The notes under the pieces are model-generated. The model ran no database searches. It was not told where the DNA came from and worked only from the letters and a program-made list of their open reading frames with translations. Shown here one piece after another: positions 27,192 through 39,578 of a stretch of DNA of 64,000 nucleotides. Position numbers and translations under genes: made by a program. How positions within the stretch are numbered: position 1 is the first letter of the stretch; the number at the start of each line of letters is the position of its first letter. The DNA is from a virus (lineage: Duplodnaviria; Caudoviricetes): positions 1 to 64,000 of the IMG/VR virus record IMGVR_UViG_3300029288_003134. One strand, 5' to 3'.

Positions 27192-27219
27192 AAATCGGTA
27201 CGGTCTTAATTGTATTTAA
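27192..27219 (+). promoter_or_regulatory. putative phage late promoter, copy 2
   Basis: AAATCGGTACGGTCTTAATTGTATTTAA. Confidence 0.7.
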
Positions 27220-27244: not shown

Positions 27245-27631
27245 ATGGCCGACTTAAAAGCTAATGTGGGTCGTATTCTCGTGGGTATTAAGGAAATTGC
27301 GAACTGCGAGGGTATCGAAGTTGATTATGATTTTAACCCTATTAAGCACTTTGCTGCTGATAGGCAATATCCGATTTTCGTTGCTCATGGAAATTCTGAG
27401 TTGACGATTACGGTGGATTGCGCTGAGTACAAAGCTGATAGCACCTATGCTATCGACACGATTGCTCAGAATGGTACGCCTGTTACAGTGGAGCTCTTGG
27501 CTGGGTATCGTGGTGGTGGGATTCCCGCTGCGACTTACACGAATTGCGTAGTGGTTCAGTATACGGTAACTTCTCGGCAGGGTGATGTTGTGAAGGCCCG
27601 TGTGATTTTGAGCAAGCAGTCAGACACATAA
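27245..27631 (+). CDS. putative tail tube (major tail) protein
   Basis: 128 aa all-beta pattern typical of Hcp/tube folds; strong AAGGAGG RBS; no other tube candidate in the tail block. Confidence 0.6.
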   Translation: MADLKANVGRILVGIKEIANCEGIEVDYDFNPIKHFAADRQYPIFVAHGNSELTITVDCAEYKADSTYAIDTIAQNGTPVTVELLAGYRGGGIPAATYTNCVVVQYTVTSRQGDVVKARVILSKQSDT

Positions 27632-27657: not shown

Positions 27658-28788
27658 ATGAAACAGGGACAAAAAACCAGAAGTATCCCTCTCTCCTTTA
27701 ATATCCGAAATGTGGATGAGGAGAAGTTGCAGATTACCCATACTGTCAATACGAAAACGCTCGACAGATATGGTACGGTGGTTCTGCCTAAAGGTGCGGA
27801 CGTTACGAAGTTCCAGCAGAATCCGGTTGTTCTTTGGCTGCATAATATGGATGAAACTCTTCCCAAAATTCCTATTGCGCGTTGCGTGCAAATGGATGTT
27901 CAGGAAGATGCGATTGTGGTTACGACTGAGTTCAACCGCAATGACCCCTTGGCCGTGAAAGTATTTCAGGCTTACAAGGATGGTTTTTTGCACGCTTGGT
28001 CGATTGGTTTTATTCCCCAGAGATTTACGGAGATTACTCCTGAGAATCAAGAGGAAGTGAATAAGCAGTATGGTCTGAGTTTGAAGCTTTCTACCGAGGA
28101 CTTTGCTGCGGCTGGTATGTGGGGTTTGTGGGTTATTCATCAGTGGGAATTATTGGAATATTCCGCTGTCCCAGTTCCGGGAAACCCGGATGCCTTGAAT
28201 TATGATGCAGAAGAGGCAGCCTTTACTCGTGAACTCGTGACTCGCGGTTTGGTTGAGGAAGAGGAAGTTCGCAGAATCAATTTCAGAGAGCTTTTGAAGA
28301 AACAAAATCAAAAGGCTGAGACTGAAGCTGCAAGTGGTACGGAACAGCCAGCTGCGGCTGCTCCTATCGAGGCTGCGCCCGCTCCAGAGGCTCCGGCTTT
28401 GGCGGCTCCGGTGGAAACTCCGGCTCCTGCTGAAACCCCGGCTCCTGAGGCTCCAGCGGCCCAACCTACTGAAGCCCCTGCAACTGAGCAGGCTCCTTCA
28501 GGTAGTGAGCAACCCACTGAATCAACGGCAGCGGCTCCTGTTGTTCCTGAGAAGCCCGTCGCGGAGACACAGGAATCTGAAGCTGCAAGAGAAGCGCAGA
28601 CTCAGGTTACTGATCTCACTCAGAAAAACAAGGAGTTGGCTGAAAGATTGGCTCAAATGGAAGCGCAAATGACTGAAATGAAAGCTAATCTGAATGTTGA
28701 TAATATAGAGAGAATTAGGGCAGTGGCTCAGAAGAAGTTGAATAGTGGAAGCCCTGATACGTTCTTTAGTCGTCTGTTAAAAGGTTAA
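27658..28788 (+). CDS. HK97-family prohead protease with Pro/Ala/Glu-rich linker and coiled-coil scaffold
   Basis: DRYG, NPVVLWLH, AWSIGFIP, ELLEYSAVPVPGNPDAL. Confidence 0.92.
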   Translation: MKQGQKTRSIPLSFNIRNVDEEKLQITHTVNTKTLDRYGTVVLPKGADVTKFQQNPVVLWLHNMDETLPKIPIARCVQMDVQEDAIVVTTEFNRNDPLAVKVFQAYKDGFLHAWSIGFIPQRFTEITPENQEEVNKQYGLSLKLSTEDFAAAGMWGLWVIHQWELLEYSAVPVPGNPDALNYDAEEAAFTRELVTRGLVEEEEVRRINFRELLKKQNQKAETEAASGTEQPAAAAPIEAAPAPEAPALAAPVETPAPAETPAPEAPAAQPTEAPATEQAPSGSEQPTESTAAAPVVPEKPVAETQESEAAREAQTQVTDLTQKNKELAERLAQMEAQMTEMKANLNVDNIERIRAVAQKKLNSGSPDTFFSRLLKG

Positions 28789-28833: not shown

Positions 28834-29772
28834 ATGGATTTCTTGATTCCAGCTGGTAGTGCAACCAATCTCCCTAAGGAATTGGTGAACAAGATTGTCG
28901 AAGACGCGATTGAGAAGTCGCTGATTTTGAAGTTGGTTGATGACCGCGATCAGATGATCGAGATTGTCAACGAGGGAACTATCCCGGTTATCGGTGAGGA
29001 AGACCTGGACAAGGTTTACCGCTTGGATAACACTGCGGATATTACCACGCTTACCGAGATGAGTTTTGATATTAAGTCACCTGACCTCGAACCTGTCGAG
29101 ATGGGTACTTACATCTACCTCAAGAAGAAGCAGGTTCAGCAGTACAATGAATTGAAGCTCGATCAGCTTTTCCGTAACAAGATCAGCCGCGCCATTGCCC
29201 GCACTGCGGACAAAATCGCCCTCAAAGGTGACACTGGTGCTGTTGGTGCTACGAACCCGCTGAACATTGCGGACGGTATTGAGAAGTTGGCTTTGACGGC
29301 TAATTGCGCCAATGCTCCCGTTGAGTATTCTACCTCCAATTCCCAGAACGTGTTGGATGCGGTAGCCGAAGCTCAGAACGATCTGGGTGCCTACGGTGCT
29401 GATGAGTCTATTGAAGACCTCGTGATTTTCGGTTCTGCGGCTTTTGTTGGGGCTGCGAAGAAATCTGCCGATAAGAACATGGTCGGGTATGAGATTATGG
29501 ACGTTCCGGCTCTCGGGCTGCGTCAGGTTGTGCATGTCCATGGTATTCCGGTTATTCGTCGGTTGAACATCACTGGTGAAAAAGCGATCTTGGCGAATGT
29601 GAAGGGTCTGTTCGTCGGGTACTATGGTAACATCGAAGTTGACGTGGAGCATAAGGCGGGTCGTCGGGCTGATTTGATGGTCGTAACCTATTGGTATGAC
29701 AATGTTTGGGCCTTTGTCAATGGTTCCAACAAGTCTGAAGGTATGGTCACGATTCAAAAAGCCAGCTCGTAA
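28834..29772 (+). CDS. major capsid protein (HK97 fold)
   Basis: Follows the protease; LPKELVNKIVE, IARTADKIALKGD, VHGIPV; strong terminator after it. Confidence 0.88.
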   Translation: MDFLIPAGSATNLPKELVNKIVEDAIEKSLILKLVDDRDQMIEIVNEGTIPVIGEEDLDKVYRLDNTADITTLTEMSFDIKSPDLEPVEMGTYIYLKKKQVQQYNELKLDQLFRNKISRAIARTADKIALKGDTGAVGATNPLNIADGIEKLALTANCANAPVEYSTSNSQNVLDAVAEAQNDLGAYGADESIEDLVIFGSAAFVGAAKKSADKNMVGYEIMDVPALGLRQVVHVHGIPVIRRLNITGEKAILANVKGLFVGYYGNIEVDVEHKAGRRADLMVVTYWYDNVWAFVNGSNKSEGMVTIQKASS

Positions 29773-29789: not shown

Positions 29790-29826
29790 AGGAGGGGTCA
29801 GGTTTTCCTGGCTCCTCCTTTTTTAT
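29790..29826 (+). terminator. intrinsic terminator after the capsid gene
   Basis: AGGAGGGGTCAGG-TTTT-CCTGGCTCCTCCT followed by a T-tract. Confidence 0.85.
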
Positions 29827-29828
29827 TC

Positions 29829-29857
29829 TTGACTCTGTGAATTTTTTGTGGTATACT
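29829..29857 (+). promoter_or_regulatory. sigma70-type promoter for the RNA cluster
   Basis: TTGACT-17-TATACT with TGTGG. Confidence 0.8.
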
Positions 29858-29878
29858 TTTGGCATGCTCTTTGAATTT

Positions 29879-29952
29879 TCAAGCCGAGCTTTCTCCCGTA
29901 ATTACGGGTCTTTGAATACCTGAGGGCTAACCTCAGAAGGAAGGCAGCTTGA
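29879..29952 (+). ncRNA. candidate branched small RNA
   Basis: TCAAGC/GCTTGA closing stem, CCCGT-AATT-ACGGG and CTGAGG-GCTAA-CCTCAG hairpins. Confidence 0.5.
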
Positions 29953-29958
29953 TATTTT

Positions 29959-30032
29959 GGCGGGTTAATGTAGTGGCCGCATGGGATGTTCATACCTTCT
30001 CAGACACGGTTCGATTCCGTGGCCCGCAACCA
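29959..30032 (+). tRNA. tRNA with CAT anticodon (Met/fMet-like, atypical)
   Basis: GGCGGGT/GCCCGCA acceptor with 1:72 mismatch, loop TTCATAC, GGTTCGATTCC, encoded CCA. Confidence 0.85.
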
Positions 30033-30035
30033 TAG

Positions 30036-30166
30036 GCGCATGTACCATGCGTACAAGAGCGCACGGGAGTACCTCAGTAATGGGGTTCGCCTGAGGCAGT
30101 AATCTCGGGGCAGATATAAACGGACGGGATAACTCGGAGTACCTCTGCCCATAACTCCGAGCTCTT
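30036..30166 (+). ncRNA. candidate structured RNA downstream of the tRNA
   Basis: AAGAGC/GCTCTT, CCTCAG/CTGAGG, CTCGGAGT/ACTCCGAG, GGGCAGA/TCTGCCC; duplicated GGAGTACCTC. Confidence 0.5.
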
Positions 30167-30172
30167 TTACTC

Positions 30173-30201
30173 TTGACACCGTAGTAAATGTGTGCTATAC
30201 T
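30173..30201 (+). promoter_or_regulatory. sigma70-type promoter for the glycosyltransferase operon
   Basis: TTGACA CCGTAGTAAATGTGTGC TATACT. Confidence 0.85.
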
Positions 30202-30249
30202 TTTATTGTAAAGTGTAAAACTCCAAATTTTAAATTGTTAGGAGAAACC

Positions 30250-32640
30250 GTGTCTGCAATCCGATTGATCTCAGAAGAAATTTCAATTTATTCTTTCCAA
30301 GCCGCAGATAAACCGCTGCATTGTCAGCAGAATTATATCTTTCAGGCCCCCGCAGGAAAGCTCTCTCTTCTTTGCTTTGCCAGTCATCAGAACCCCGAGG
30401 CAGAAATGCACCCTTTCGTGGCGCAAGCCATCAAAAACGACCTGGGTGTGGTCTATATTTGCGAAAAATTGCCGAAAAACCTCATTATCGACCCGCATGT
30501 GACTTATTTAGAGGCCCCGTATCGGTGGTTTTTGCATACACTTTTTATGAACCCTCTTCGGTTTTCTGGCGTCTTTGCGACTCAAGAATCCCTCCGTTTG
30601 GCGCAGGCTTTCAGTGAGTTCACAGGTTATTCGATTCCGCACATACGAAATGAGCAAATTTTTTCTGCTTTTGCTAAAAAGGCCGAGGCAACCCGTAAAA
30701 ATGTGCTCGTTGAGGTTATCGGTGGAGTCGGAGATCACTTAATGGCAATCCCCGCGATAAAAACTTTAGACGCGAAAGGCTATCATGTTTCGATTTTGTG
30801 CGAGGCTCACAGAAATCCGTGCTTCCAGAATTTACCCTATGTGCGATCTATTTTTGCTCAGCGCAAAGAGGTGGACGTTTCTAATTTTGGTCGAATTATC
30901 ATGTTGCATTTTGGACAACAGCTTAATGATTATCGCTTAGACTTGAATAAAAAAAATCGGATTTATTCTGTTGCTGAATTATGCGGCTTGAAGCCGGAAG
31001 ATTTAGTCATTAAACGGCCTGAAATTATTCTGACGAAAGATGAATTGAATAACGCTCAACGAAAATTCGGCTCTTATTCAAATAAAATATTTTTTGGCAG
31101 TGACAGCGCGAGAGTTGATGCTAAAATACCCGCAGTGCTCGCACAAGAAAAAATCAATATTTTGAAGGGTAAAGGTTTCACAGTTTTTTCTGCATCGGTG
31201 CGAAGAGAACAACATGAAAACTGCATTGATCTAAATAAGAAGCTAGAATTACGTGAACTTTTTGCCATCATTTCTTTAATGGATTGTGTTTTAACCGTTG
31301 ACACCTCTTTTGTTCATATTGCTGCCGCATTCAATAAAAAAACATTTTGTCTATTAAATTATTTCAAACCGGATTGGCGTTGCGGAACATACCCGAATTG
31401 CGTAGTATATACACCCAAGGTTCCATGTTATCCCTGCGTTGCGAAACAGTTCGTAGCATCTTGCGAGTGGCAGTGTCATACCAAGTCTTGTTATGAGTTT
31501 TTTGATTGGGAGCGAATTATTTCGGATATTTATGATTTTAAGCTTACCAAAGAATTAAAGGAACAGGAAAAAATTCGTGTTATACCAACCCCCGTGGCTC
31601 CTATTTTAACAACCGAGACACAGGTTAAAGAAGCCGCTCCGGGCAAACTTATAAACGTCCGAGAATTTTCCGGCCCACGCATTGCGGCTATTTGGATGGG
31701 TGGGGTTGGCGATACTGTTATGCTCGGATATTTGTGTCGGGCAATTTTAGCAAAATACCCGGATGCTCAAATCGACGCCTATGTTCGAGATGTTACACAG
31801 ACAGCGTTGTTTGTTTTTGATTATCCACAAATAAAGGGCTGTGTTTCCAAGTTATCTTGGGGAAAAACGCTCGAAAAGATCAAGGCTGATTATGACTTTG
31901 TGTACGATTTTAGGCCTTACCCGTATGTTTGGAATACTAAAAAACCTGAATTGAATAAACCCTTTAATAAGGAACTATATTCTAATTGGGGGAAAGCTAC
32001 GGGAGAAATATTACGCTCTTGGCAGCAGCAGACTTTTAGATTTTATGCACAGCAGACGGAGTTAAATCTCACCGAGAAGCATTTAAAAATTCCGTTCTTT
32101 CCTAAAGAAGATGCCGCAATTAGATCACGTTTATCTCCCTACGAATTACCTGAAAAATATATCACTATCTCTCCGGGATGCGATCAAAATGTTGGGTTAA
32201 TGAAGCTCTGGTCGAAAGGTAATTGGCAAACATTAGAGAGTATGCTATTACACGAGGGTTATAACATAATTTATTTATCTGATAAGGCTTCCCCCCAAAT
32301 CTTAGAATCTAAAAAAACTGTATGCAAAAATTTAATCGACATGCTGCTTATTTTGCAACAAGCCAGTTTAAACGTGAGTAATGAGGGTGGTTCCATTCAT
32401 CTAGCACATGCGGTGGGCACAAAGAGTGTGGTTCTTTTCGGGCCGACTAATCCAGAATTATACGGTTACGCAGACAACATAAATATTTATAAGCCGCATT
32501 GTCCGACCTGTTGGTGGACTGCGCCTGAGTGGTCAAAGTTCTGTAAGAAGCATTATCGAGCCTGTATCAATCTTGTAGATATTTCTGTTCAGGAAGTTTA
32601 TGATGCAGTTATTTCTGGAGTTTCCAATGTCAAAAATTAA
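30250..32640 (+). CDS. tandem double GT9-family (heptosyltransferase-like) glycosyltransferase
   Basis: GGVGDHLMAIP...VDTSFVHIAAA...CYPC, then GGVGDTVML...NEGGSIHLAHAVGTKSVVLFGPTNP...CPTC; GTG start with AGGAG RBS. Confidence 0.9.
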   Translation: MSAIRLISEEISIYSFQAADKPLHCQQNYIFQAPAGKLSLLCFASHQNPEAEMHPFVAQAIKNDLGVVYICEKLPKNLIIDPHVTYLEAPYRWFLHTLFMNPLRFSGVFATQESLRLAQAFSEFTGYSIPHIRNEQIFSAFAKKAEATRKNVLVEVIGGVGDHLMAIPAIKTLDAKGYHVSILCEAHRNPCFQNLPYVRSIFAQRKEVDVSNFGRIIMLHFGQQLNDYRLDLNKKNRIYSVAELCGLKPEDLVIKRPEIILTKDELNNAQRKFGSYSNKIFFGSDSARVDAKIPAVLAQEKINILKGKGFTVFSASVRREQHENCIDLNKKLELRELFAIISLMDCVLTVDTSFVHIAAAFNKKTFCLLNYFKPDWRCGTYPNCVVYTPKVPCYPCVAKQFVASCEWQCHTKSCYEFFDWERIISDIYDFKLTKELKEQEKIRVIPTPVAPILTTETQVKEAAPGKLINVREFSGPRIAAIWMGGVGDTVMLGYLCRAILAKYPDAQIDAYVRDVTQTALFVFDYPQIKGCVSKLSWGKTLEKIKADYDFVYDFRPYPYVWNTKKPELNKPFNKELYSNWGKATGEILRSWQQQTFRFYAQQTELNLTEKHLKIPFFPKEDAAIRSRLSPYELPEKYITISPGCDQNVGLMKLWSKGNWQTLESMLLHEGYNIIYLSDKASPQILESKKTVCKNLIDMLLILQQASLNVSNEGGSIHLAHAVGTKSVVLFGPTNPELYGYADNINIYKPHCPTCWWTAPEWSKFCKKHYRACINLVDISVQEVYDAVISGVSNVKN

Positions 32641-33112
32641 CCTTGGTTGTGGTGACGTAAAAATGCCTGGCTTTATCAATGCGGATATTCGGCCTGAAGT
32701 TAAGCCTGATATGTGCATAGATATTTCTGAGCTCTCTCAGTTTAAGGATGGAGAATTTACCTACATGTTAGCGCATGATGTTTTGGAACATTTTCCACAC
32801 GCGCAGGTTTGGACTGTCTTGGCGAATTGGATACGCTGTTTAGCTGTGGGCGGTAGGTTGGAGATTCAGGTTCCAAGTATTGATCGAATTTATGCGGATA
32901 GAAAGAACTTAATCGAGCGATATGGTGGAGACTCCTCTGGTAGGTTTTCTAAGTTGATTTTTGGTGGGCAGAGTTATCCAGCTAATTTTCATTTTGTTTG
33001 TTTTACTCCAGAATTTTTCCAGTTAGTCGCAAAGAAATTCGGATTAAAAATTGAATCCTACAGCCCAGTTGGATTATACAATCATAAGGTTATTTTTTTG
33101 AGGTTAAAATGA
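32627..33112 (+). CDS. class I SAM-dependent methyltransferase (Methyltransf_11-like)
   Basis: INLGCG, INAD, HDVLEHF, GGRLEIQVP. Confidence 0.88.
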   Translation: MSKINLGCGDVKMPGFINADIRPEVKPDMCIDISELSQFKDGEFTYMLAHDVLEHFPHAQVWTVLANWIRCLAVGGRLEIQVPSIDRIYADRKNLIERYGGDSSGRFSKLIFGGQSYPANFHFVCFTPEFFQLVAKKFGLKIESYSPVGLYNHKVIFLRLK

Positions 33113-33984
33113 ATTTATATAAGGCAAAATGTCTCTGGCTCACAGATTACACGGTAAAAGAGGTTCCGGCAGGCGGAGCTGAAATTACCGACTCTTGGGT
33201 TTTAAAAGCGGCCCAAGTTTCCGGCCTATCTGTAACAGTGGCCCGGCCTATGGACATGCGGACGGATGTTTTGGATGCAGCGGATTTTGTGATCTTCAGC
33301 AATAATTACGAATTTCCAGCCGCTTGCCGAGAGGCTGTAATACGGCGGAAACCCTATATCGTTTATTCGCATGATTCTGGCCGTTGGAATGACGTTTTTA
33401 TAAAGACTCCCGGAATGTGCGCGGGTGCCTTAGGGTCAATCTTTTTGTCACCTTTGCATCAGCAGTCTTTGGAACGGCATTTATCCGGTGCAAAAAATGT
33501 CGTTTGTGTTCCACCACACATCACGCTGGATTTTTATGATAAAGGCGCGGCCCGAGAAAACAAAGTAATGTTTGTTGGAAATGTCCATAGAGGCAAGGGT
33601 GTTTGTGAAATTATCCAGTGGGCCCGAAAAAACCCGCAGATTCACATTGATTTTTATTACCAGCGCGGTCAGACTGATCTTTTGGAGACATTAAAGCGTT
33701 TAAATAATTGTCATTTAATAGGTTACGTGCCAAAAGAGGAGATTTTCGAGCGGTACAATCGGTATCGGTATTTTATCCATATCCCCGAGCATTACGAGTC
33801 TTTCGGGCGTGCCGTGGGCGAGGCCTACCTAAGCGGCTGCCAGTTGATTGTTAATGATCGGGTAGGGGCCTGCTCCTATGGGTGGAATTATTCAAAATTT
33901 AGGGAAATGACTGCAAATGCTCATTTTATGTTCTGGAATCGTGTGGAAATGATGCTAAAAAGCGCAGAATCGGTACAGGCTTAA
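33109..33984 (+). CDS. GT4-family glycosyltransferase
   Basis: GGAE, FVGNVHRGKG, ESFGRAVGEA (E-x7-E). Confidence 0.88.
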   Translation: MNLYKAKCLWLTDYTVKEVPAGGAEITDSWVLKAAQVSGLSVTVARPMDMRTDVLDAADFVIFSNNYEFPAACREAVIRRKPYIVYSHDSGRWNDVFIKTPGMCAGALGSIFLSPLHQQSLERHLSGAKNVVCVPPHITLDFYDKGAARENKVMFVGNVHRGKGVCEIIQWARKNPQIHIDFYYQRGQTDLLETLKRLNNCHLIGYVPKEEIFERYNRYRYFIHIPEHYESFGRAVGEAYLSGCQLIVNDRVGACSYGWNYSKFREMTANAHFMFWNRVEMMLKSAESVQA

Positions 33985-33994
33985 TTGTATTTAA
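33968..33994 (+). promoter_or_regulatory. putative phage late promoter, copy 3
   Basis: AATCGGTACAGGCTTAATTGTATTTAA overlapping the GT4 stop codon. Confidence 0.7.
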
Positions 33995-34015
33995 TAATAG
34001 GAGGGGTCTGTCATA

Positions 34016-34459
34016 ATGAAATCCTATATTTTTGGCAAATTTACTATCGGGGATAAGCTCATTCTGACCTCTTTTCAGAATCTTGTGGGAAGCTGTGAAT
34101 ATTTGGGTGAGCGGGTTGATCTTTCCAAGGTTACGGTTGAGGACGAAAATTTAATCGTCGTGATGAATCCTAGCCTTTTTCAGATCGACCTGGATAAAGT
34201 TTTGGGATACATTCGGAAAGATTGCAGCAAGCCTTTAGTGGTGGTGAAAAAGATTAAGACTTTTGCCACATTCTTTTTTGAGCCGAATTTTAAGCTGGAA
34301 AGAATTACCACGAATAAGGCTTACACGTTTGCCGGAATTCTCTATGTTCCTGGGAATTATTTAAAAAATTTGGATGAAGAGAATCCTACCATGTCGGCCA
34401 TTTTTAGATCGGTTCCTAAAGATGACTGGCGTTATTATTTTATCAGTCACGTGAGGTAA
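34016..34459 (+). CDS. hypothetical protein, weakly like a degenerate sugar-phosphate nucleotidyltransferase
   Basis: IDLDKVL...FAGILYV resembles the NTP_transferase C-terminal half; the GGxGxR motif is absent. Confidence 0.4.
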   Translation: MKSYIFGKFTIGDKLILTSFQNLVGSCEYLGERVDLSKVTVEDENLIVVMNPSLFQIDLDKVLGYIRKDCSKPLVVVKKIKTFATFFFEPNFKLERITTNKAYTFAGILYVPGNYLKNLDEENPTMSAIFRSVPKDDWRYYFISHVR

Positions 34460-37364: not shown

Positions 37365-39578
37365 ATGGCAGAGAAAAATCTTCATATAAATATTGGTCTT
37401 GGTATAGAAGACCTCCAAAAAAATCTAGGCAAAATGACTACGGGCTTAGCCCTCGTAAAGTCTGCCCTACGCGCAGTTTTTCGTACTGCAATCGTAGCCG
37501 GATTCTTCATGGCTATACGTGCGGGTTTTAATGTTTTATCTAATTTTCAAAACTCTCTGGAAAAACTCGCCGGAGATTTTGGGAAGCTGAACTATGCCGC
37601 AGTTCAAACTGCTGCTATTATTTCTGAGGGTGGTGGGGGTTTTCAGGCAGCCTTTGAGGAGGCATCTCAATCCGCCAGAAAATTATCTATGGAGACAGGC
37701 TTTACAGCCGGAGAAATTCAGGCTGGCTTATACACCTCCGCCCAGGCCGCATTAAATTTTTCAGATTCCTTAAAAGTTACTCAGTCTGCTTTACAATTAG
37801 CCACAGTAGGTGGTGAAGATTTTCAGGGTACTTTAAATGATTTAATTGGTATTACACGAGCTTTCGGGGTATCTGTTAAAGAAGTACCGCAGTTTGCTGA
37901 TGCTTTAACCGCAGCTATGATTAAATCCAAAGCGACTTTAGGTGGTTTATTTGAAGGCTTACGAAATGTCGCGTCTATTGCTGGAACAGCTTTTGGTGAG
38001 ACACGAGATACTTTTTTGGATTCTTCGGCTGCGTTAATGGTTTTAAATGATGCGGGTATTGAAGGAAGTTCTGCCGGAACTAAATTAAGGGCAGCAATGC
38101 AAAAACTTTTGGGCGGCACAGTTCAAACCACAGCTGCTTTTACAAAATACGGAATAAACCTCTTTCAGGCAGATGCCGCATCACAGGGTTATTTGAGGAC
38201 TTTACTCTCTGGGCAGAAAGTTATGGCTTCCACACAGGAAGAATTAAATGCCTTAAAACAAAAACAGTTTGATTTAATCGGTGCAAATCAGCAGGGGTCA
38301 CGGGAGTTTGCTACTTTAACAGCCGACCTAGATAAGGTAAGCACTAAGTTGTTTGATATGCAGAAAAATTTGGACGATGTTTATAATGAATTTACTTTAG
38401 CTGGTGGTAAGCTTCGGCCCTTTGCAGATGTTTTAAATGAAATAGGTACTAAGGCCCCCACTGAGGTTATTGGGAGGGCTTTTGGTATTCGCGGCGGTGA
38501 GGCGATTATGCGGGTACTTAATAACTTAGATAAATTTAATCGTTTTAAGACTATTCTTAAAGAATATGTATCTGAGTCTGAAAAGGGTAAAAGTATTACT
38601 CAGACTATTTTTGGGCAGTTCGTGGAGTCTGTACTTATCCGCTGGCAGAAAATGAAGAATAGTGTAATGGCTATTTTTGGTGTGATTGCTGATTCATTTT
38701 TTTCGGCTTTAGCCCCCATAATGGAACCAGTTCAAAAATCTTTAAATACTATTTTTGAATCTATTTCTAGGAATAAGGGTAGTTTTGCGAATGTTTTCAA
38801 GGGTGCTGCCGAGGCACTTAGGCCCGCTTTAGATTATATGAGTAAGGCTGTTCCTAAAATAACAGATCAATTAGCAGGTGTATTTGTTCCGGGTAAAGAA
38901 ATGAATTTTAAAAAATATGCGTTTAGTTCTGAGACCGGGAAAATACAGTCTAGTGATATAAAATCTACTGGAGATGTTACTAATAAATTAAAATTATTTA
39001 CAGAATCATTATCATCTCTTTTTATTGCTGTTTTGAGTCAAGGTTTAATGGCTTTAAAGCCTATCATAGATATTTTTGGAGCAGTTTTTTCTGCTTCAAT
39101 TTTTGCTGAACTTCAAAAAAATGTTGCAATATTCAAAAGTATTGGTGCGGAGGTTGCGCGAGGTTTTGTAGCGGCTCTTGGTGAGATGGCTGTAGAGACT
39201 GGCAAGGGTTTGGTCGTTGGCGGCTCTTCTCTCGCTAAGACTGCTCTTGGTGGTTTTGGTACAAATTCTACAGGTTTACCTGCTGTTGGTGGCACCTTCC
39301 CCAATCCATACCCGCAAATTCCTACAACTTTAATGGGTTTGCCTGGTGCTAATAATAAGAGTCCCTCAGAAGGAACCGCTTCAATTCAGTGGGGTAAAGG
39401 GCCAGCTGAGCAGATAGATTTATCTAAATTAAATACGGCTGGCATGGAGAATGCTTTTGATAAAATGGGTCGGGCAGTTGACACCCACAATCAGGCACTC
39501 ACAAGGATAAATACTCGTTTAAATGATGTTGAGGCTGAGGCTAAACGGGCTCTGGAGCGGTTATATCAGGGTCGTTAA
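37365..39578 (+). CDS. tape measure protein (TP901-type domain)
   Basis: FTAGEIQAGL, FADALT, LNDAGIEGSSAGTKLR; Ala/Gly-rich helical. Confidence 0.92.
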   Translation: MAEKNLHINIGLGIEDLQKNLGKMTTGLALVKSALRAVFRTAIVAGFFMAIRAGFNVLSNFQNSLEKLAGDFGKLNYAAVQTAAIISEGGGGFQAAFEEASQSARKLSMETGFTAGEIQAGLYTSAQAALNFSDSLKVTQSALQLATVGGEDFQGTLNDLIGITRAFGVSVKEVPQFADALTAAMIKSKATLGGLFEGLRNVASIAGTAFGETRDTFLDSSAALMVLNDAGIEGSSAGTKLRAAMQKLLGGTVQTTAAFTKYGINLFQADAASQGYLRTLLSGQKVMASTQEELNALKQKQFDLIGANQQGSREFATLTADLDKVSTKLFDMQKNLDDVYNEFTLAGGKLRPFADVLNEIGTKAPTEVIGRAFGIRGGEAIMRVLNNLDKFNRFKTILKEYVSESEKGKSITQTIFGQFVESVLIRWQKMKNSVMAIFGVIADSFFSALAPIMEPVQKSLNTIFESISRNKGSFANVFKGAAEALRPALDYMSKAVPKITDQLAGVFVPGKEMNFKKYAFSSETGKIQSSDIKSTGDVTNKLKLFTESLSSLFIAVLSQGLMALKPIIDIFGAVFSASIFAELQKNVAIFKSIGAEVARGFVAALGEMAVETGKGLVVGGSSLAKTALGGFGTNSTGLPAVGGTFPNPYPQIPTTLMGLPGANNKSPSEGTASIQWGKGPAEQIDLSKLNTAGMENAFDKMGRAVDTHNQALTRINTRLNDVEAEAKRALERLYQGR

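What the first reader, a model, noticed from the sequence alone, without database searches (positions are those of the whole stretch)
30173..34459. Glycosylation cassette (double GT9, methyltransferase, GT4) inserted between capsid and neck genes
Seen: three glycosyltransferase domains and a methyltransferase, translationally coupled. They are bracketed by the capsid terminator and their own sigma70 promoter on the left and a late motif on the right, followed by a nucleotidyltransferase-like ORF. Established: GT9 enzymes transfer ADP-heptose in LPS core synthesis, and some actinophages glycosylate their virions using glycosyltransferases. Inference: a pathway building a methylated, possibly heptose-containing glycan on the virion, or remodelling host LPS or phage DNA. 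The host-type promoter argues for expression before the late genes. Heptose transfer would also tie into ADP-heptose signalling.
Basis: partly seen in the sequence, partly recalled or inferred. Interest (0 to 1): 0.8.

Follow-up and report, generated by a model that had tools for sequence, protein, structure and literature searches.

The report
Capsid-linked sugar-coating gene cassette in phage
An uncultivated 92-kb phage, like all its known relatives, carries a separately switched set of sugar-adding enzymes right behind its capsid gene. These enzymes most likely coat the phage particle with a strain-specific glycan, something shown so far only for phages of mycobacteria, but no chemistry proves it here.

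Summary
Window 30173-33984 holds a sigma70-type promoter and three overlapping genes:
- a 796-aa protein with a new N-terminal domain and two divergent GT9 domains
- a 161-aa SAM methyltransferase
- a 291-aa GT4-like transferase with an EX7E motif

The unit lies between the capsid-gene terminator and a late-promoter motif.

ORF 34016-34459 belongs to the next late operon. Its "nucleotidyltransferase" label is unsupported.

In 18 related viral contigs, and in two distant 67-kb phages whose capsid protein is only 27% identical, the N-domain+GT9 module always directly follows the capsid gene. The genes behind it vary widely: sulfo-, pyruvyl-, methyl-, glycerophospho-/LicD and phosphonate enzymes. 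All are soluble, and none is a flippase, polymerase or ligase.

Within the window's clade the capsid and probable tail-tube proteins are 59-97% identical (39% and 61% in outlier L021). In every lineage, the two distant phages included, both end in Ser or Thr.

Best reading (about 0.55): cytoplasmic O-glycosylation of virion proteins. LPS or envelope remodelling (about 0.17) and DNA glycosylation (about 0.05) are less likely. Heptose as the sugar is unproven.

This scan has already noted capsid-adjacent glycosyltransferase cassettes on many other phage genomes. This one is a new GT9-based, hypervariable variant.

The parts
27193..27219 (+). Late-promoter-like motif, copy 2 of 3, upstream of the tube-protease-capsid operon
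   Evidence: Exact 27-nt motif, found 3 times in the window and in the whole genome against 0 expected. Its core TTGTATTTAAT-A-TAG is conserved before the same genes in relatives.
27245..27631 (+). 128-aa probable major tail tube protein, ending ...KQSDT; candidate glycan acceptor
   Evidence: 88-97% identical across 12 full-length close relatives, 73% in L016 and 61% in L021. Homologues at 36-38% identity in L049 and L050 sit at the canonical tube position and match Pfam Phage_tube_2 weakly, below cut-off (E 9.5e-5). The C-terminal Thr/Ser is conserved.
27658..28788 (+). Prohead protease fused to a Pro/Ala/Glu/Thr-rich scaffold-like region
   Evidence: Peptidase_S78 and phrog_80 head maturation protease; sequence.
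28834..29772 (+). Major capsid protein (HK97 type), ending ...QKASS; candidate glycan acceptor
   Evidence: Phage_capsid PF05065. 59-87% identical in the relatives of the window's clade (39% in L021). The C-terminal Ser is kept even in the 27-39% identical capsid proteins of L021, L049 and L050.
29790..29819 (+). Intrinsic terminator ending the capsid operon
   Evidence: 13-bp stem plus T-run; -26.1 kcal/mol, z = -5.9. A hairpin with a T-run follows the capsid gene in all relatives.
29829..29857 (+). Sigma70-type promoter of a short non-coding unit that holds a tRNA-like gene (29959-30032)
   Evidence: Exact member of the TTGAC-N15-TGnTATACT class. ARAGORN calls tRNA-Met CAT, but Rfam's tRNA model does not match it.
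30173..30201 (+). Sigma70-type (extended -10) promoter of the glycosylation cassette
   Evidence: 11 of 12 consensus positions plus TG. It belongs to the same class as the 6 exact and 2 near-exact copies on the minus strand. The same promoter precedes the gene in L012 and L014; a copy with A for G in the TG element precedes it in L011, and one precedes an inserted ORF in L008.
30250..30699 (+). N-terminal 150-aa domain of the 796-aa transferase, fold unassigned; possible acceptor-recognition domain
   Evidence: Conserved in all homologues. About 25 of the 32 representative clusters found at E<=1e-30 align from within the N-domain. No Pfam hit and no Atlas lead.
30700..31569 (+). GT9 domain 1, the clade-wide conserved 'initiating' module
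   Evidence: Pfam and NCBIfam hits. Invariant GGxGDH, DTSxxH and CxxC...C...C. Its N-lobe is the most conserved part, at 68% mean pairwise identity. It is the only part kept in L015, L016, L021, L049 and L050.
31675..32640 (+). GT9 domain 2
   Evidence: PF01075 best stretch 620-763. Aligns to WaaF and WaaC with K652, E712 and H717 at WaaC K192, D261 and H266. Replaced by other GT9 paralogues or joined by GT2 in L011, L012 and L014.
32627..33112 (+). 161-aa class I SAM methyltransferase, presumed sugar O-methylase
   Evidence: Methyltransf_11 and phrog_6636. NLGCG motif I. Overlaps the upstream stop by 14 nt. Present in 5 of the relatives.
33109..33984 (+). 291-aa GT4-like (retaining-type) glycosyltransferase
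   Evidence: Glycos_transf_1 and Glyco_trans_1_4. ESFGRAVGE is an EX7E motif. ATGA overlap with the methyltransferase. The hits that lie on long contigs share contig lengths with the GT9 homologues (92567, 96347, 91996, 74572, 71670), and none carries a cellular organism's name.
33968..33994 (+). Late-promoter-like motif, copy 3, overlapping the GT4 gene end and restarting late transcription
   Evidence: The core motif precedes the orf147 homologue in 10 of the 12 relatives examined.
34016..34459 (+). 147-aa conserved protein of unknown function, first gene of the neck/tail late operon; not part of the cassette's transcription unit
   Evidence: Present in all relatives that extend that far. 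No Pfam, NCBIfam or PHROG hit. Model pLDDT 60 and best fold Z 3.5. NTP-transferase only as a 0.91 language-model lead.

Best explanation
The cassette is a phage-encoded, cytoplasmic protein-glycosylation system for the virion.

**Proposed sequence of events (inferred)**
1. The cassette is transcribed from its own host-type promoter, apart from the late operons. Its enzymes are therefore available when virion proteins are made.
2. The conserved N-domain+GT9-1 module puts the first sugar on a conserved acceptor. The most likely acceptor is the C-terminal Ser/Thr of the major capsid protein and of the tail tube protein.
3. GT9-2 and the GT4-like enzyme extend the glycan.
4. The small SAM methyltransferase caps it with a methyl group.
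5. Sugar nucleotides come from the host. ADP-heptose is possible but unproven.

In sister phages the same slot carries other tailoring enzymes. The clade therefore keeps a nearly invariant protein shell and varies its surface through glycan chemistry.

**Shown:** gene content, motifs, transcription signals, synteny and solubility.
**Inferred:** the acceptor, the sugars, the timing of expression and the benefit to the phage.
For: 1. **Linkage to the capsid gene.** The N-domain+GT9 gene follows the capsid gene (after a hairpin with a T-run, and in three contigs also one small inserted ORF) in all 17 related IMG/VR contigs whose sequence covers that junction. The same holds in two distant 67-kb phages whose capsid protein is only 27% identical. 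No relative was found in 185,579 species genomes or in 50,697 GenBank phage records.
2. **A variable slot behind a conserved first enzyme.** The downstream genes include APS kinase with sulfotransferase, LicD, TagF-like, pyruvyl transferase, FkbM and TylF methyltransferases, nucleotide-sugar dehydrogenases and epimerases, an aminotransferase with GNAT, and a PEP-mutase-cytidylyltransferase fusion.
3. **Soluble enzymes only.** No multi-spanning membrane protein, flippase, polymerase, ligase or polyprenyl-phosphate transferase occurs in any cassette (hydropathy scan). The glycan must therefore be built on an acceptor in the cytoplasm.
4. **A conserved acceptor is implied.** The acceptor-side lobe of GT9-1 is the most conserved part of the enzyme, at 68% against 48-54% elsewhere. 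The capsid protein is 70-87% identical and the probable tube protein 88-97% identical in relatives whose GT9 protein is only 46-55% identical. Both end in Ser or Thr in every lineage, although the preceding residues vary.
5. **The catalytic machinery is intact.** GGxGD is invariant in both domains, D/E-x-G-x-x-H and Lys sit at the WaaC donor-site positions, and the GT4-like protein has EX7E. The model has pLDDT 82.5, and its top PDB folds are all GT9. They include the protein O-heptosyltransferase TibC at E 1e-9.
6. **Precedents.**
   - Mycobacteriophage Che8 O-glycosylates its capsid protein with phage glycosyltransferases (PMC13445384, PMC11256854).
   - In chlorovirus PBCV-1 most of the predicted glycosyltransferases lack signal peptides and membrane-spanning segments and are expressed early; they are taken to glycosylate the capsid protein, and A064R carries two transferase domains plus a methyltransferase (PMC9614988).
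   - TibC shows that the GT9 fold can act on protein Ser. It has an N-terminal accessory domain and a 4-Cys finger (PMC4358343), features that both GT9 domains here resemble through CxxC...C...C.
7. **Selection on the gene.** Inteins sit exactly at the CxxC of GT9-1 in two relatives, as expected for a conserved, selected site.
Against: - No chemistry exists. The acceptor is inferred only from gene position and C-terminal residues.
- A terminal Ser/Thr is a weak signal. Three of the 29 plus-strand ORFs in the window end in Ser or Thr.
- The capsid protein has no Ser/Thr-rich extension.
- GT9 is above all an LPS-core family, and by sequence domain 2 is closest to WaaF.
- The promoter is of the non-late class, while capsid proteins are late.
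- Several relatives show no recognisable promoter before the gene.
- The host is unknown, so donor availability cannot be judged.
- TibC was not reached by sequence profile, and Foldseek ranks it level with WaaC and WaaF.
Confidence: 0.55

Rival explanations
1. The phage remodels the host envelope. The GT9 domains add heptose or another sugar to the LPS inner core, or to another cell-surface glycan or protein such as pilin. The GT4-like enzyme and the methyltransferase extend this. The result would block superinfection or stop progeny from sticking to debris.
For: - GT9 is the LPS heptosyltransferase family. The best sequence hits are WaaF and WaaC, and NCBIfam hits are heptosyltransferases I to III.
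- LPS core synthesis happens on the cytoplasmic face of the membrane, so soluble or peripheral enzymes would suffice.
- The promoter belongs to the class otherwise found before the minus-strand, probably early genes.
Against: - Scores are far below every LPS equivalog cut-off (48-51 bits against 134-185).
- The family is purely viral or metagenomic.
- No integrase is present, and no relative of this protein was found in 185,579 species genomes. Classical seroconversion is a trait of lysogens.
- Nothing in this idea explains the strict position behind the capsid gene in phages with very different capsids.
- The tailoring chemistry in relatives (glycerophosphate, phosphonate, pyruvate, sulfate) is not that of an LPS inner core.
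Confidence: 0.17
2. The cassette glycosylates phage DNA on a hydroxylated or hydroxymethylated pyrimidine to evade restriction, like T4 and the metagenomic glycosyltransferase gene clusters that add hexose, heptose or Kdo to 5hmC.
For: - Phage GT-B enzymes do hypermodify DNA, including with heptose. Such clusters can hold cytidylyltransferases and can lie near structural genes (bioRxiv 10.1101/2023.12.21.572611; PMC13326640).
Against: - The complete genome has no thymidylate-synthase homologue and no C5 DNA methylase. All described routes to the needed hydroxyl group start from one of these.
- The Tet/JBP search found nothing, but its control was silent, so that result is inconclusive.
- The cassette lies among head genes, not replication genes.
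- The top folds are GT9, not T4 beta-GT-like.
Confidence: 0.05
3. The cassette glycosylates some other cytoplasmic acceptor, such as a small molecule, a host protein or the scaffold's Pro/Ala/Thr-rich linker. Its place next to the capsid gene would then be only a tolerated 'moron' slot behind a strong terminator.
For: - Slots behind capsid terminators often hold accessory genes.
- The cassette has its own promoter.
- Homing endonucleases and inteins show the region is a hot spot for mobile DNA.
- The protease-scaffold protein has a long PAET-rich linker.
Against: - The first enzyme module is ancestral and conserved in place across phages with 27% identical capsids. It is not a sporadic moron.
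- The acceptor lobe is the best conserved part, which argues for a conserved phage-encoded acceptor.
Confidence: 0.12

Closest known systems
Mycobacteriophage virion glycosylation (Che8 and other cluster F1 phages, Corndog, Myrna; Freeman et al. 2023, Cell Host Microbe 31:1216)
   Same: - Phage-encoded glycosyltransferases, with a methyltransferase in Che8, decorate the phage's own particle with O-linked glycans (PMC13445384, PMC11256854).
- As I recall the abstract, which is not held in the library, the glycans sit on the C-termini of capsid and tail tube subunits. Those are the two proteins that end in conserved Ser/Thr here.
   Different: - The enzyme families differ. Here the core is a tandem GT9 with a new N-domain.
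- The phage lineage and the (unknown) host differ.
- The cassette sits directly behind the capsid gene, whereas in the F1 phage Maravista the genes lie near the right genome end (PMC11256854).
- The tailoring gene set is far more variable.
- Nothing is shown experimentally here.
Bacterial autotransporter heptosyltransferases (TibC/Aah, PDB 4RAP and 4RB4; PMC4358343)
   Same: - A GT9-like GT-B fold acts on Ser of a protein, using ADP-heptose.
- TibC has an extra N-terminal domain needed for activity and a 4-Cys metal finger in the C-lobe. Here there is a 150-aa N-domain and CxxC...C...C in both GT9 domains.
- Foldseek E 1e-9.
   Different: - There is no sequence-level match.
- The N-domain here is mixed alpha/beta, not a flattened beta-barrel.
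- Two catalytic domains are fused in one chain.
- Oligomeric state, metal, donor and acceptor are all untested.
LPS core heptosyltransferases WaaC, WaaF and WaaQ (CAZy GT9; PDB 2H1H, 6DFE, 1PSW)
   Same: - Same Pfam family and fold.
- The catalytic Asp in the N-terminal GD motif and the donor-site Lys, Asp/Glu and His are conserved.
   Different: - Scores are far below the equivalog cut-offs.
- The family is viral only.
- The protein has a tandem fusion and an extra domain.
- The genomic context is head morphogenesis, not an LPS core operon.
Chlorovirus PBCV-1 capsid glycosylation enzyme A064R and partners (PMC9614988)
   Same: - A virus-encoded protein that, like most of the virus's transferases, lacks a signal peptide and membrane segments, with two glycosyltransferase domains plus a methyltransferase. 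It builds and methylates the glycan of the major capsid protein, and variation in these genes gives antigenic classes. The PBCV-1 transferase genes are reported to be expressed early.
   Different: - It is a eukaryotic giant virus with N-linked glycans.
- The domains are GT-A and novel folds, not GT9 or GT4.
- The methyltransferase is fused there and a separate, translationally coupled gene here.

Membership tests
Glycosyltransferase family 9 (Pfam PF01075 / CAZy GT9) | Profile match above the curated cut-off | tested here: met
   77.3 bits against a 22-bit cut-off, in two stretches.
Glycosyltransferase family 9 (Pfam PF01075 / CAZy GT9) | GT-B fold closest to solved GT9 structures | tested here: met
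   The model has pLDDT 82.5. Top Foldseek hits are 3TOV at 6.6e-13, WaaC 6DFE at 4.9e-11, WaaF 1PSW at 1.6e-10 and TibC 4RAP at 1.1e-9.
Glycosyltransferase family 9 (Pfam PF01075 / CAZy GT9) | Catalytic Asp in the N-terminal G-D motif (WaaC Asp13) and donor-site Lys/Asp/His (WaaC K192, D261, H266) | tested here: met
   - GGxGD is invariant in both domains (D162, D488).
- Domain 2 aligns K652, E712 and H717 to the WaaC residues.
- Domain 1 has invariant D351...H356 and K292-x-P294 by pattern only.
- The residue roles are from my knowledge of the WaaC structures.
Glycosyltransferase family 9 (Pfam PF01075 / CAZy GT9) | ADP-heptose as donor | not testable with these tools
   - The genome has no GmhA-like or adenylyltransferase-like gene.
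- The small nucleotidyltransferases of relatives score equally for TagD and RfaE domain II, both below cut-off.
LPS heptosyltransferase I, II and III equivalogs (TIGR02193, TIGR02195, TIGR02201; RfaC, RfaF, RfaQ) | Score at or above the NCBIfam equivalog cut-off | tested here: not met
   51.2, 48.1 and 42.1 bits against cut-offs of 134.6, 185.3 and 170.2.
Bacterial autotransporter heptosyltransferases (TibC/Aah) | Four-Cys iron finger inserted in the C-lobe | tested here: inconclusive
   CxxC-x12-C-x4-C (C393, C396, C409, C414) and CxxC-x10-C-x6-C (C751, C754, C765, C772) are invariant and lie at a comparable place. No residue-level alignment to TibC C339, C342, C358 and C370 was obtained.
Bacterial autotransporter heptosyltransferases (TibC/Aah) | Protein serine as acceptor; dodecameric ring | not testable with these tools
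   Needs biochemistry or structure determination.
Glycosyltransferase family 4-like (Pfam Glycos_transf_1) for ORF 33109-33984 | Profile match above cut-off and an EX7E motif | tested here: met
   31.8 bits against 26.4. ESFGRAVGE can be read directly. The N-terminal lobe is short, since the whole protein is only 291 aa.
Class I SAM-dependent methyltransferase for ORF 32627-33112 | Profile match and glycine-rich motif I | tested here: met
   Methyltransf_11 at 24.3 bits against 21.2 and phrog_6636 at 4.5e-8. INLGCGD lies at the N-terminus. The substrate is unknown.
Phage virion glycosylation systems (actinophage type) | Glycan covalently bound to capsid or tail tube subunits, dependent on phage glycosyltransferases | not testable with these tools
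   Only indirect evidence exists: synteny, soluble enzymes, and conserved C-terminal Ser/Thr on both proteins.
Sugar-phosphate nucleotidyltransferase (for ORF 34016-34459) | Profile or fold match to NTP_transferase | tested here: inconclusive
   - Only a language-model lead exists, at 0.91 with a low shared-feature count.
- There is no Pfam, NCBIfam or PHROG hit.
- hhalign against an NTP_transf_3 protein gives probability 0.4%.
- The model has pLDDT 60 and a best fold Z of 3.5.

The most novel reading that the evidence does not exclude
This phage clade carries an O-antigen-like, hypervariable virion-glycan locus.
- A conserved TibC-like protein glycosyltransferase module (new N-domain plus GT9) primes the C-terminal Ser/Thr of both the capsid and the tail tube protein.
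- Swappable downstream genes then give each phage its own glycan. Decorations would include methylation, sulfation, pyruvylation, glycerophosphate or phosphocholine, and even phosphonate.
- The protein shell stays almost invariant while surface chemistry diversifies. If so, virion glycosylation would be a general phage strategy well beyond actinophages.
Probability: 0.35. Interest if true: 0.85.

Novelty: new variant of a known kind. Interest (0 to 1): 0.62.

Why it matters
**What is known.** Glycosylated phage particles have been demonstrated only for a few actinophages. By my recollection, that study saw little sign of the trait in other phages.

**What this adds, if the reading holds.**
- An uncultivated, purely viral lineage has an ancestral, capsid-linked glycosylation locus whose content varies the way bacterial O-antigen loci do.
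- Phages would then diversify their surface through sugars, which could serve for shielding, stability, or decoy and receptor interactions.
- GT9 enzymes would have a protein-directed branch in viruses.
- Phage genomes would be a source of sulfo-, pyruvyl- and phosphono-glycan enzymes that work in the cytoplasm without lipid carriers.
- It would give a concrete, testable acceptor hypothesis: the C-terminal Ser/Thr of the capsid and tube proteins.

**Practical relevance.** Surface glycans change how the immune system recognises phages, which matters for phage therapy. Soluble protein glycosylation modules are also attractive tools for glyco-engineering.

Tried and rejected
Context was obtained through the search for related loci instead.
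- **Single-sequence locus search** found nothing. Only the alignment-based search worked.
- **No relatives** of the GT9 protein or the capsid protein appear in GenBank phages. No relative of the GT9 protein appears in 185,579 species genomes, so no host could be named.
- **ORF 34016-34459:** Pfam, NCBIfam, PHROG, a PDB profile search, hhalign against an NTP-transferase, AlphaFold (pLDDT 60) and VIA-align (best Z 3.5) gave no assignment. The nucleotidyltransferase idea is left open, not accepted.
- **N-terminal domain of the GT9 protein:** no Atlas lead.
- **TibC against LPS enzymes:** Foldseek E-values are too close to separate them, and TibC is not reached by profile.
- **Heptose link through relatives' nucleotidyltransferases:** TagD-like and RfaE-II-like scores are equal and below cut-off.
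- **Tet/JBP search:** uninformative, because the control was silent.
- **Phage sigma factor** noted by another reader near the terminase genes: not found with Sigma70_r2. What reads the late motif remains open.
- **Recent horizontal insertion** rejected, because the module is ancestral to two deeply diverged phage groups.
- **Recent internal duplication of the GT9 domains** rejected, because they are only about 20% identical.

Full report
**Setting.** The window is the first 64 kb of a 92,558-bp IMG/VR virus record rated complete. Plus-strand genes from about 24 to 52 kb form the virion module:
- prohead protease-scaffold, 27658-28788
- HK97-type major capsid protein, 28834-29772
- head-tail adaptors, tail completion protein and tail terminator
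- chaperones and tape measure, 37365-39578

No tyrosine integrase is present. Neither the capsid protein nor the large transferase has a relative among 50,697 GenBank phage records. The transferase has none in 185,579 species genomes either.

The 816-codon frame 30190-32640 carries two Glyco_transf_9 stretches (E 1.4e-21).
- The frame's first 20 codons overlap the promoter's -10 box and its leader.
- The true start is GTG 30250, behind AGGAG. This gives the N-terminus MSAIRLIS shared by 16 homologues.
- The 796-aa protein has a 150-aa N-terminal domain without any family match, GT9 domain 1 (about 151-440), a poorly conserved linker, and GT9 domain 2 (about 476-796).
- The two GT9 domains are only about 20% identical to each other, so this is an old fusion and not a recent duplication.

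The methyltransferase starts at ATG 32627 (MSKINLGCG, with GGAG six bases upstream) and overlaps the preceding stop by 14 nt. The GT4-like gene starts in an ATGA overlap with the methyltransferase stop and contains an EX7E motif (ESFGRAVGE). No competing ORF longer than 76 codons lies on the other strand.

**Transcription signals.**
- The capsid gene ends in a strong terminator (29790-29819; -26.1 kcal/mol, z = -5.9).
- Two near-identical promoters of the form TTGAC-N15-TGnTATACT follow. One, at 29829, drives a short non-coding unit with a tRNA-like gene. The other, at 30173, drives the cassette.
- This promoter class has 9 exact copies in the window (11 allowing mismatches, against 1.6 expected). 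Apart from one doubtful two-mismatch match, all the others lie on the minus strand, before the minus-strand genes. Those genes include anti-restriction, RNA-ligase and DNA-methylase genes, so they are probably early or middle genes; no expression data exist.
- A different 27-nt motif (AATCGGTAC-N3-CTTAATTGTATTTAA) occurs exactly three times in the whole genome: at 24015, at 27193 and at 33968. The second copy lies before the 128-aa gene that heads the protease-capsid operon. The third overlaps the end of the GT4-like gene, just before ORF 34016.
- Its core, TTGTATTTAAT-A-TAG, is conserved before the same two genes in most relatives but never before the GT9 gene.

ORF 34016-34459 belongs to the following late operon.

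**The cassette is a clade-wide feature with variable content.** Twenty-eight homologues of the 796-aa protein (40-71% identical to it, apart from the window's own copy) come from metagenomic contigs of up to 96 kb.
- In the 17 IMG/VR loci whose sequence covers the junction, out of 18 found, the order is capsid gene, hairpin with T-run, GT9 gene; in three of them one small ORF (an endonuclease-like gene in L008) lies between the hairpin and the GT9 gene. The eighteenth, L008, begins just before its capsid gene.
- A search seeded with the capsid protein found no contig of this capsid type that lacks the GT9 gene.
- Between the GT9 gene and the orf147 homologue, the relatives carry very different genes, listed below.

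| Locus | Genes in the slot |
|---|---|
| L004 | nucleotide-sugar dehydrogenase, APS kinase plus sulfotransferase, methyltransferases, cytidylyltransferase-like |
| L007, L008 | LicD, short-chain dehydrogenases, UPF0047 or DUF2284, one to three small nucleotidyltransferases |
| L014 | TylF methyltransferase, TagF-like glycerophosphotransferase, NTP-transferase-GNAT, class III aminotransferase |
| L011, L012 | FkbM methyltransferase plus pyruvyl transferase; in L011 also a GT2 domain fused to the GT9 protein |
| L021 | KdsA-like enzyme, transaldolase, 4,6-dehydratase |
| L016 | PEP-mutase-cytidylyltransferase fusion, TPP-enzyme/GT2, Fe-alcohol dehydrogenase, HAD phosphatase, epimerases (phosphonate tailoring) |

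- The methyltransferase and GT4-like genes of the window occur in only some relatives.
- GT4-like homologues on long contigs share contig lengths with the GT9 homologues, and none carries a cellular organism's name.

**The invariant element is the N-domain plus GT9-1.**
- L015, L016 and L021 match only this part of the window's protein; in L016 it stands alone as a 436-aa protein.
- About 25 of the 32 representative clusters found at E<=1e-30 align from within the N-domain, and many of these are 400-445 aa long. Every representative looked up came from a metagenomic contig of at most 67 kb; two carried archaeal MAG labels.
- Two 67-kb phages carry one such form (L049, L050). There the capsid protein is only 27% identical to the window's, yet the N-domain+GT9 gene again directly follows it, with a pyruvyl transferase behind.
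- Within the full-length proteins, the N-terminal lobe of GT9-1 is the most conserved part (68% mean pairwise identity, against 48-54% elsewhere). In GT-B enzymes this lobe binds the acceptor.

**The enzymes appear functional.**
- The AlphaFold model (pLDDT 82.5) matches only GT9 structures at the top: Veillonella 3TOV, WaaC, WaaF, and the protein heptosyltransferase TibC at E 1e-9.
- GGxGD, which holds the WaaC Asp13 position, is invariant in both domains.
- Domain 2 aligns K652, E712 and H717 with WaaC K192, D261 and H266. Domain 1 keeps D351...H356.
- Both domains carry an invariant CxxC...C...C cluster near the end of the C-lobe. This resembles the 4-Cys iron finger of TibC, which helps bind its protein substrate (PMC4358343). 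No residue-level alignment to TibC was obtained.
- In L011 and L013 an intein is inserted exactly before the second Cys of this motif in domain 1. That Cys serves as the +1 nucleophile.
- Scores against the LPS heptosyltransferase equivalogs are far below cut-off.

**What is the acceptor?** A hydropathy scan of the window's cassette and of about 65 cassette ORFs in 11 relatives found no multi-spanning membrane protein. None of the Pfam scans found a flippase, polymerase, ligase or initiating polyprenyl-phosphate transferase. The glycan must therefore be built on an acceptor available in the cytoplasm.

DNA is unlikely. The complete genome has no thymidylate-synthase homologue and no C5-methylase. 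The described routes to glycosylated pyrimidines start from one of these.

LPS core remains possible but explains neither the position nor the chemistry.

Virion proteins fit best.
- The capsid protein is 59-87% identical in the relatives of the window's clade (39% in L021), and 70-87% in those whose GT9 protein is 46-55% identical.
- The 128-aa product of 27245-27631 is 88-97% identical in the 12 full-length close relatives (73% in L016, 61% in L021). It is probably the major tail tube protein. Its homologues in L049 and L050 sit between the tail terminator and the chaperones, and they match Phage_tube_2 weakly and below cut-off. The window has no tube gene at that place.
- Following a lead from earlier notes of this scan, I checked the C-termini. 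Every capsid protein ends in Ser (...KASS...KTS...NAS...LGS...KAS). Every tube homologue ends in Thr or Ser (...QSDT...QAAS...AYSS...ALSS). The preceding residues vary.
- As I recall the abstract of Freeman et al. 2023, which is not held in the library, mycobacteriophage glycans are attached to the C-termini of exactly these two proteins. Papers that are held confirm O-glycosylation of the Che8 capsid protein by phage transferases.
- The signal is suggestive but not strong, since 3 of 29 plus-strand ORFs in the window end in Ser or Thr.

**Timing.** The non-late promoter does not argue against a virion target. In chlorovirus PBCV-1, the predicted glycosyltransferases taken to glycosylate the capsid protein mostly lack signal peptides and membrane segments and are expressed early. 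One of them, A064R, has two transferase domains and a methyltransferase (PMC9614988).

**The sugar.** Heptose is a fair guess from the family but is unproven. The genome encodes no GmhA-like or adenylyltransferase-like gene. The small nucleotidyltransferases of relatives are equally close to TagD and to RfaE domain II.

**Verdict.**
- The most likely function is cytoplasmic O-glycosylation of the virion (about 0.55), built on a conserved initiating module and lineage-specific tailoring.
- Relative to known systems it is a new variant. The principle is known from actinophages and chloroviruses. The enzyme architecture, the strict capsid linkage across deep divergence and the O-antigen-like variability are new.
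- GT9-fold proteins are already annotated in other uncultured phages.
- This scan has noted capsid-adjacent glycosyltransferase cassettes in many other phage genomes. The general theme is therefore recurrent, and that tempers the score.

Noticed in passing
window 27245-27631: A 128-aa protein that is 88-97% identical across 12 close relatives, more conserved than the capsid protein. It is probably the major tail tube protein, moved in front of the protease gene under its own late motif. In the distant phages L049 and L050 its homologue sits at the canonical tube position and matches Phage_tube_2 weakly.
   Followed up: partly
L011:9995-14278 and L013:8997-12491: A roughly 353-aa intein is inserted in the GT9 protein exactly between Pro395 and Cys396 of the CxxC motif of domain 1 (...SCFP|CFP...VHN|CVAKQF). 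Two further intein-bearing homologues are P0007 and P0016.
   Followed up: partly
L016:9956-19664: The cassette of a 63-kb relative encodes a PEP-mutase-cytidylyltransferase fusion, a TPP-enzyme/GT2 fusion, an Fe-alcohol dehydrogenase, a HAD phosphatase, further GT2s and epimerases. This is a phosphonate-tailoring glycan pathway beside a phage capsid gene.
   Followed up: partly
L004:11497-12983: An APS kinase and a sulfotransferase lie side by side in the capsid-adjacent cassette of a relative. This suggests the phage supplies its own PAPS for a sulfated glycan.
   Followed up: no
L004:13599-14300, L005:12906-13628, L007:11116-11817 and others: A recurrent 233-240-aa protein with no Pfam or NCBIfam match lies next to, or one small gene away from, a small TagD/RfaE-II-like nucleotidyltransferase in seven relatives. 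It may be a new transferase or sugar-phosphate enzyme.
   Followed up: no
window 29829-30168: A short unit with its own promoter lies between the capsid terminator and the cassette promoter. ARAGORN calls a tRNA-Met (CAT) at 29959-30032, but Rfam's tRNA model does not match it even at E<=1. Relatives L011, L012 and L014 also have long structured-looking spacers here.
   Followed up: partly
L004:14287-15312, L004:17191-17619, L008:1726-2409, L009:3494-4275: Homing-endonuclease-type genes (HNH fused to a cytidylyltransferase, LAGLIDADG, endonuclease-like ORFs) are scattered through and around the cassettes of relatives. The region is a hot spot for mobile DNA.
   Followed up: no
window 27658-28788: The prohead protease is fused to a long Pro/Ala/Glu/Thr-rich low-complexity linker (about residues 215-320). 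Only the flanking parts of the protein align in several relatives (L007, L009, L010, L013, L018-L020).
   Followed up: no
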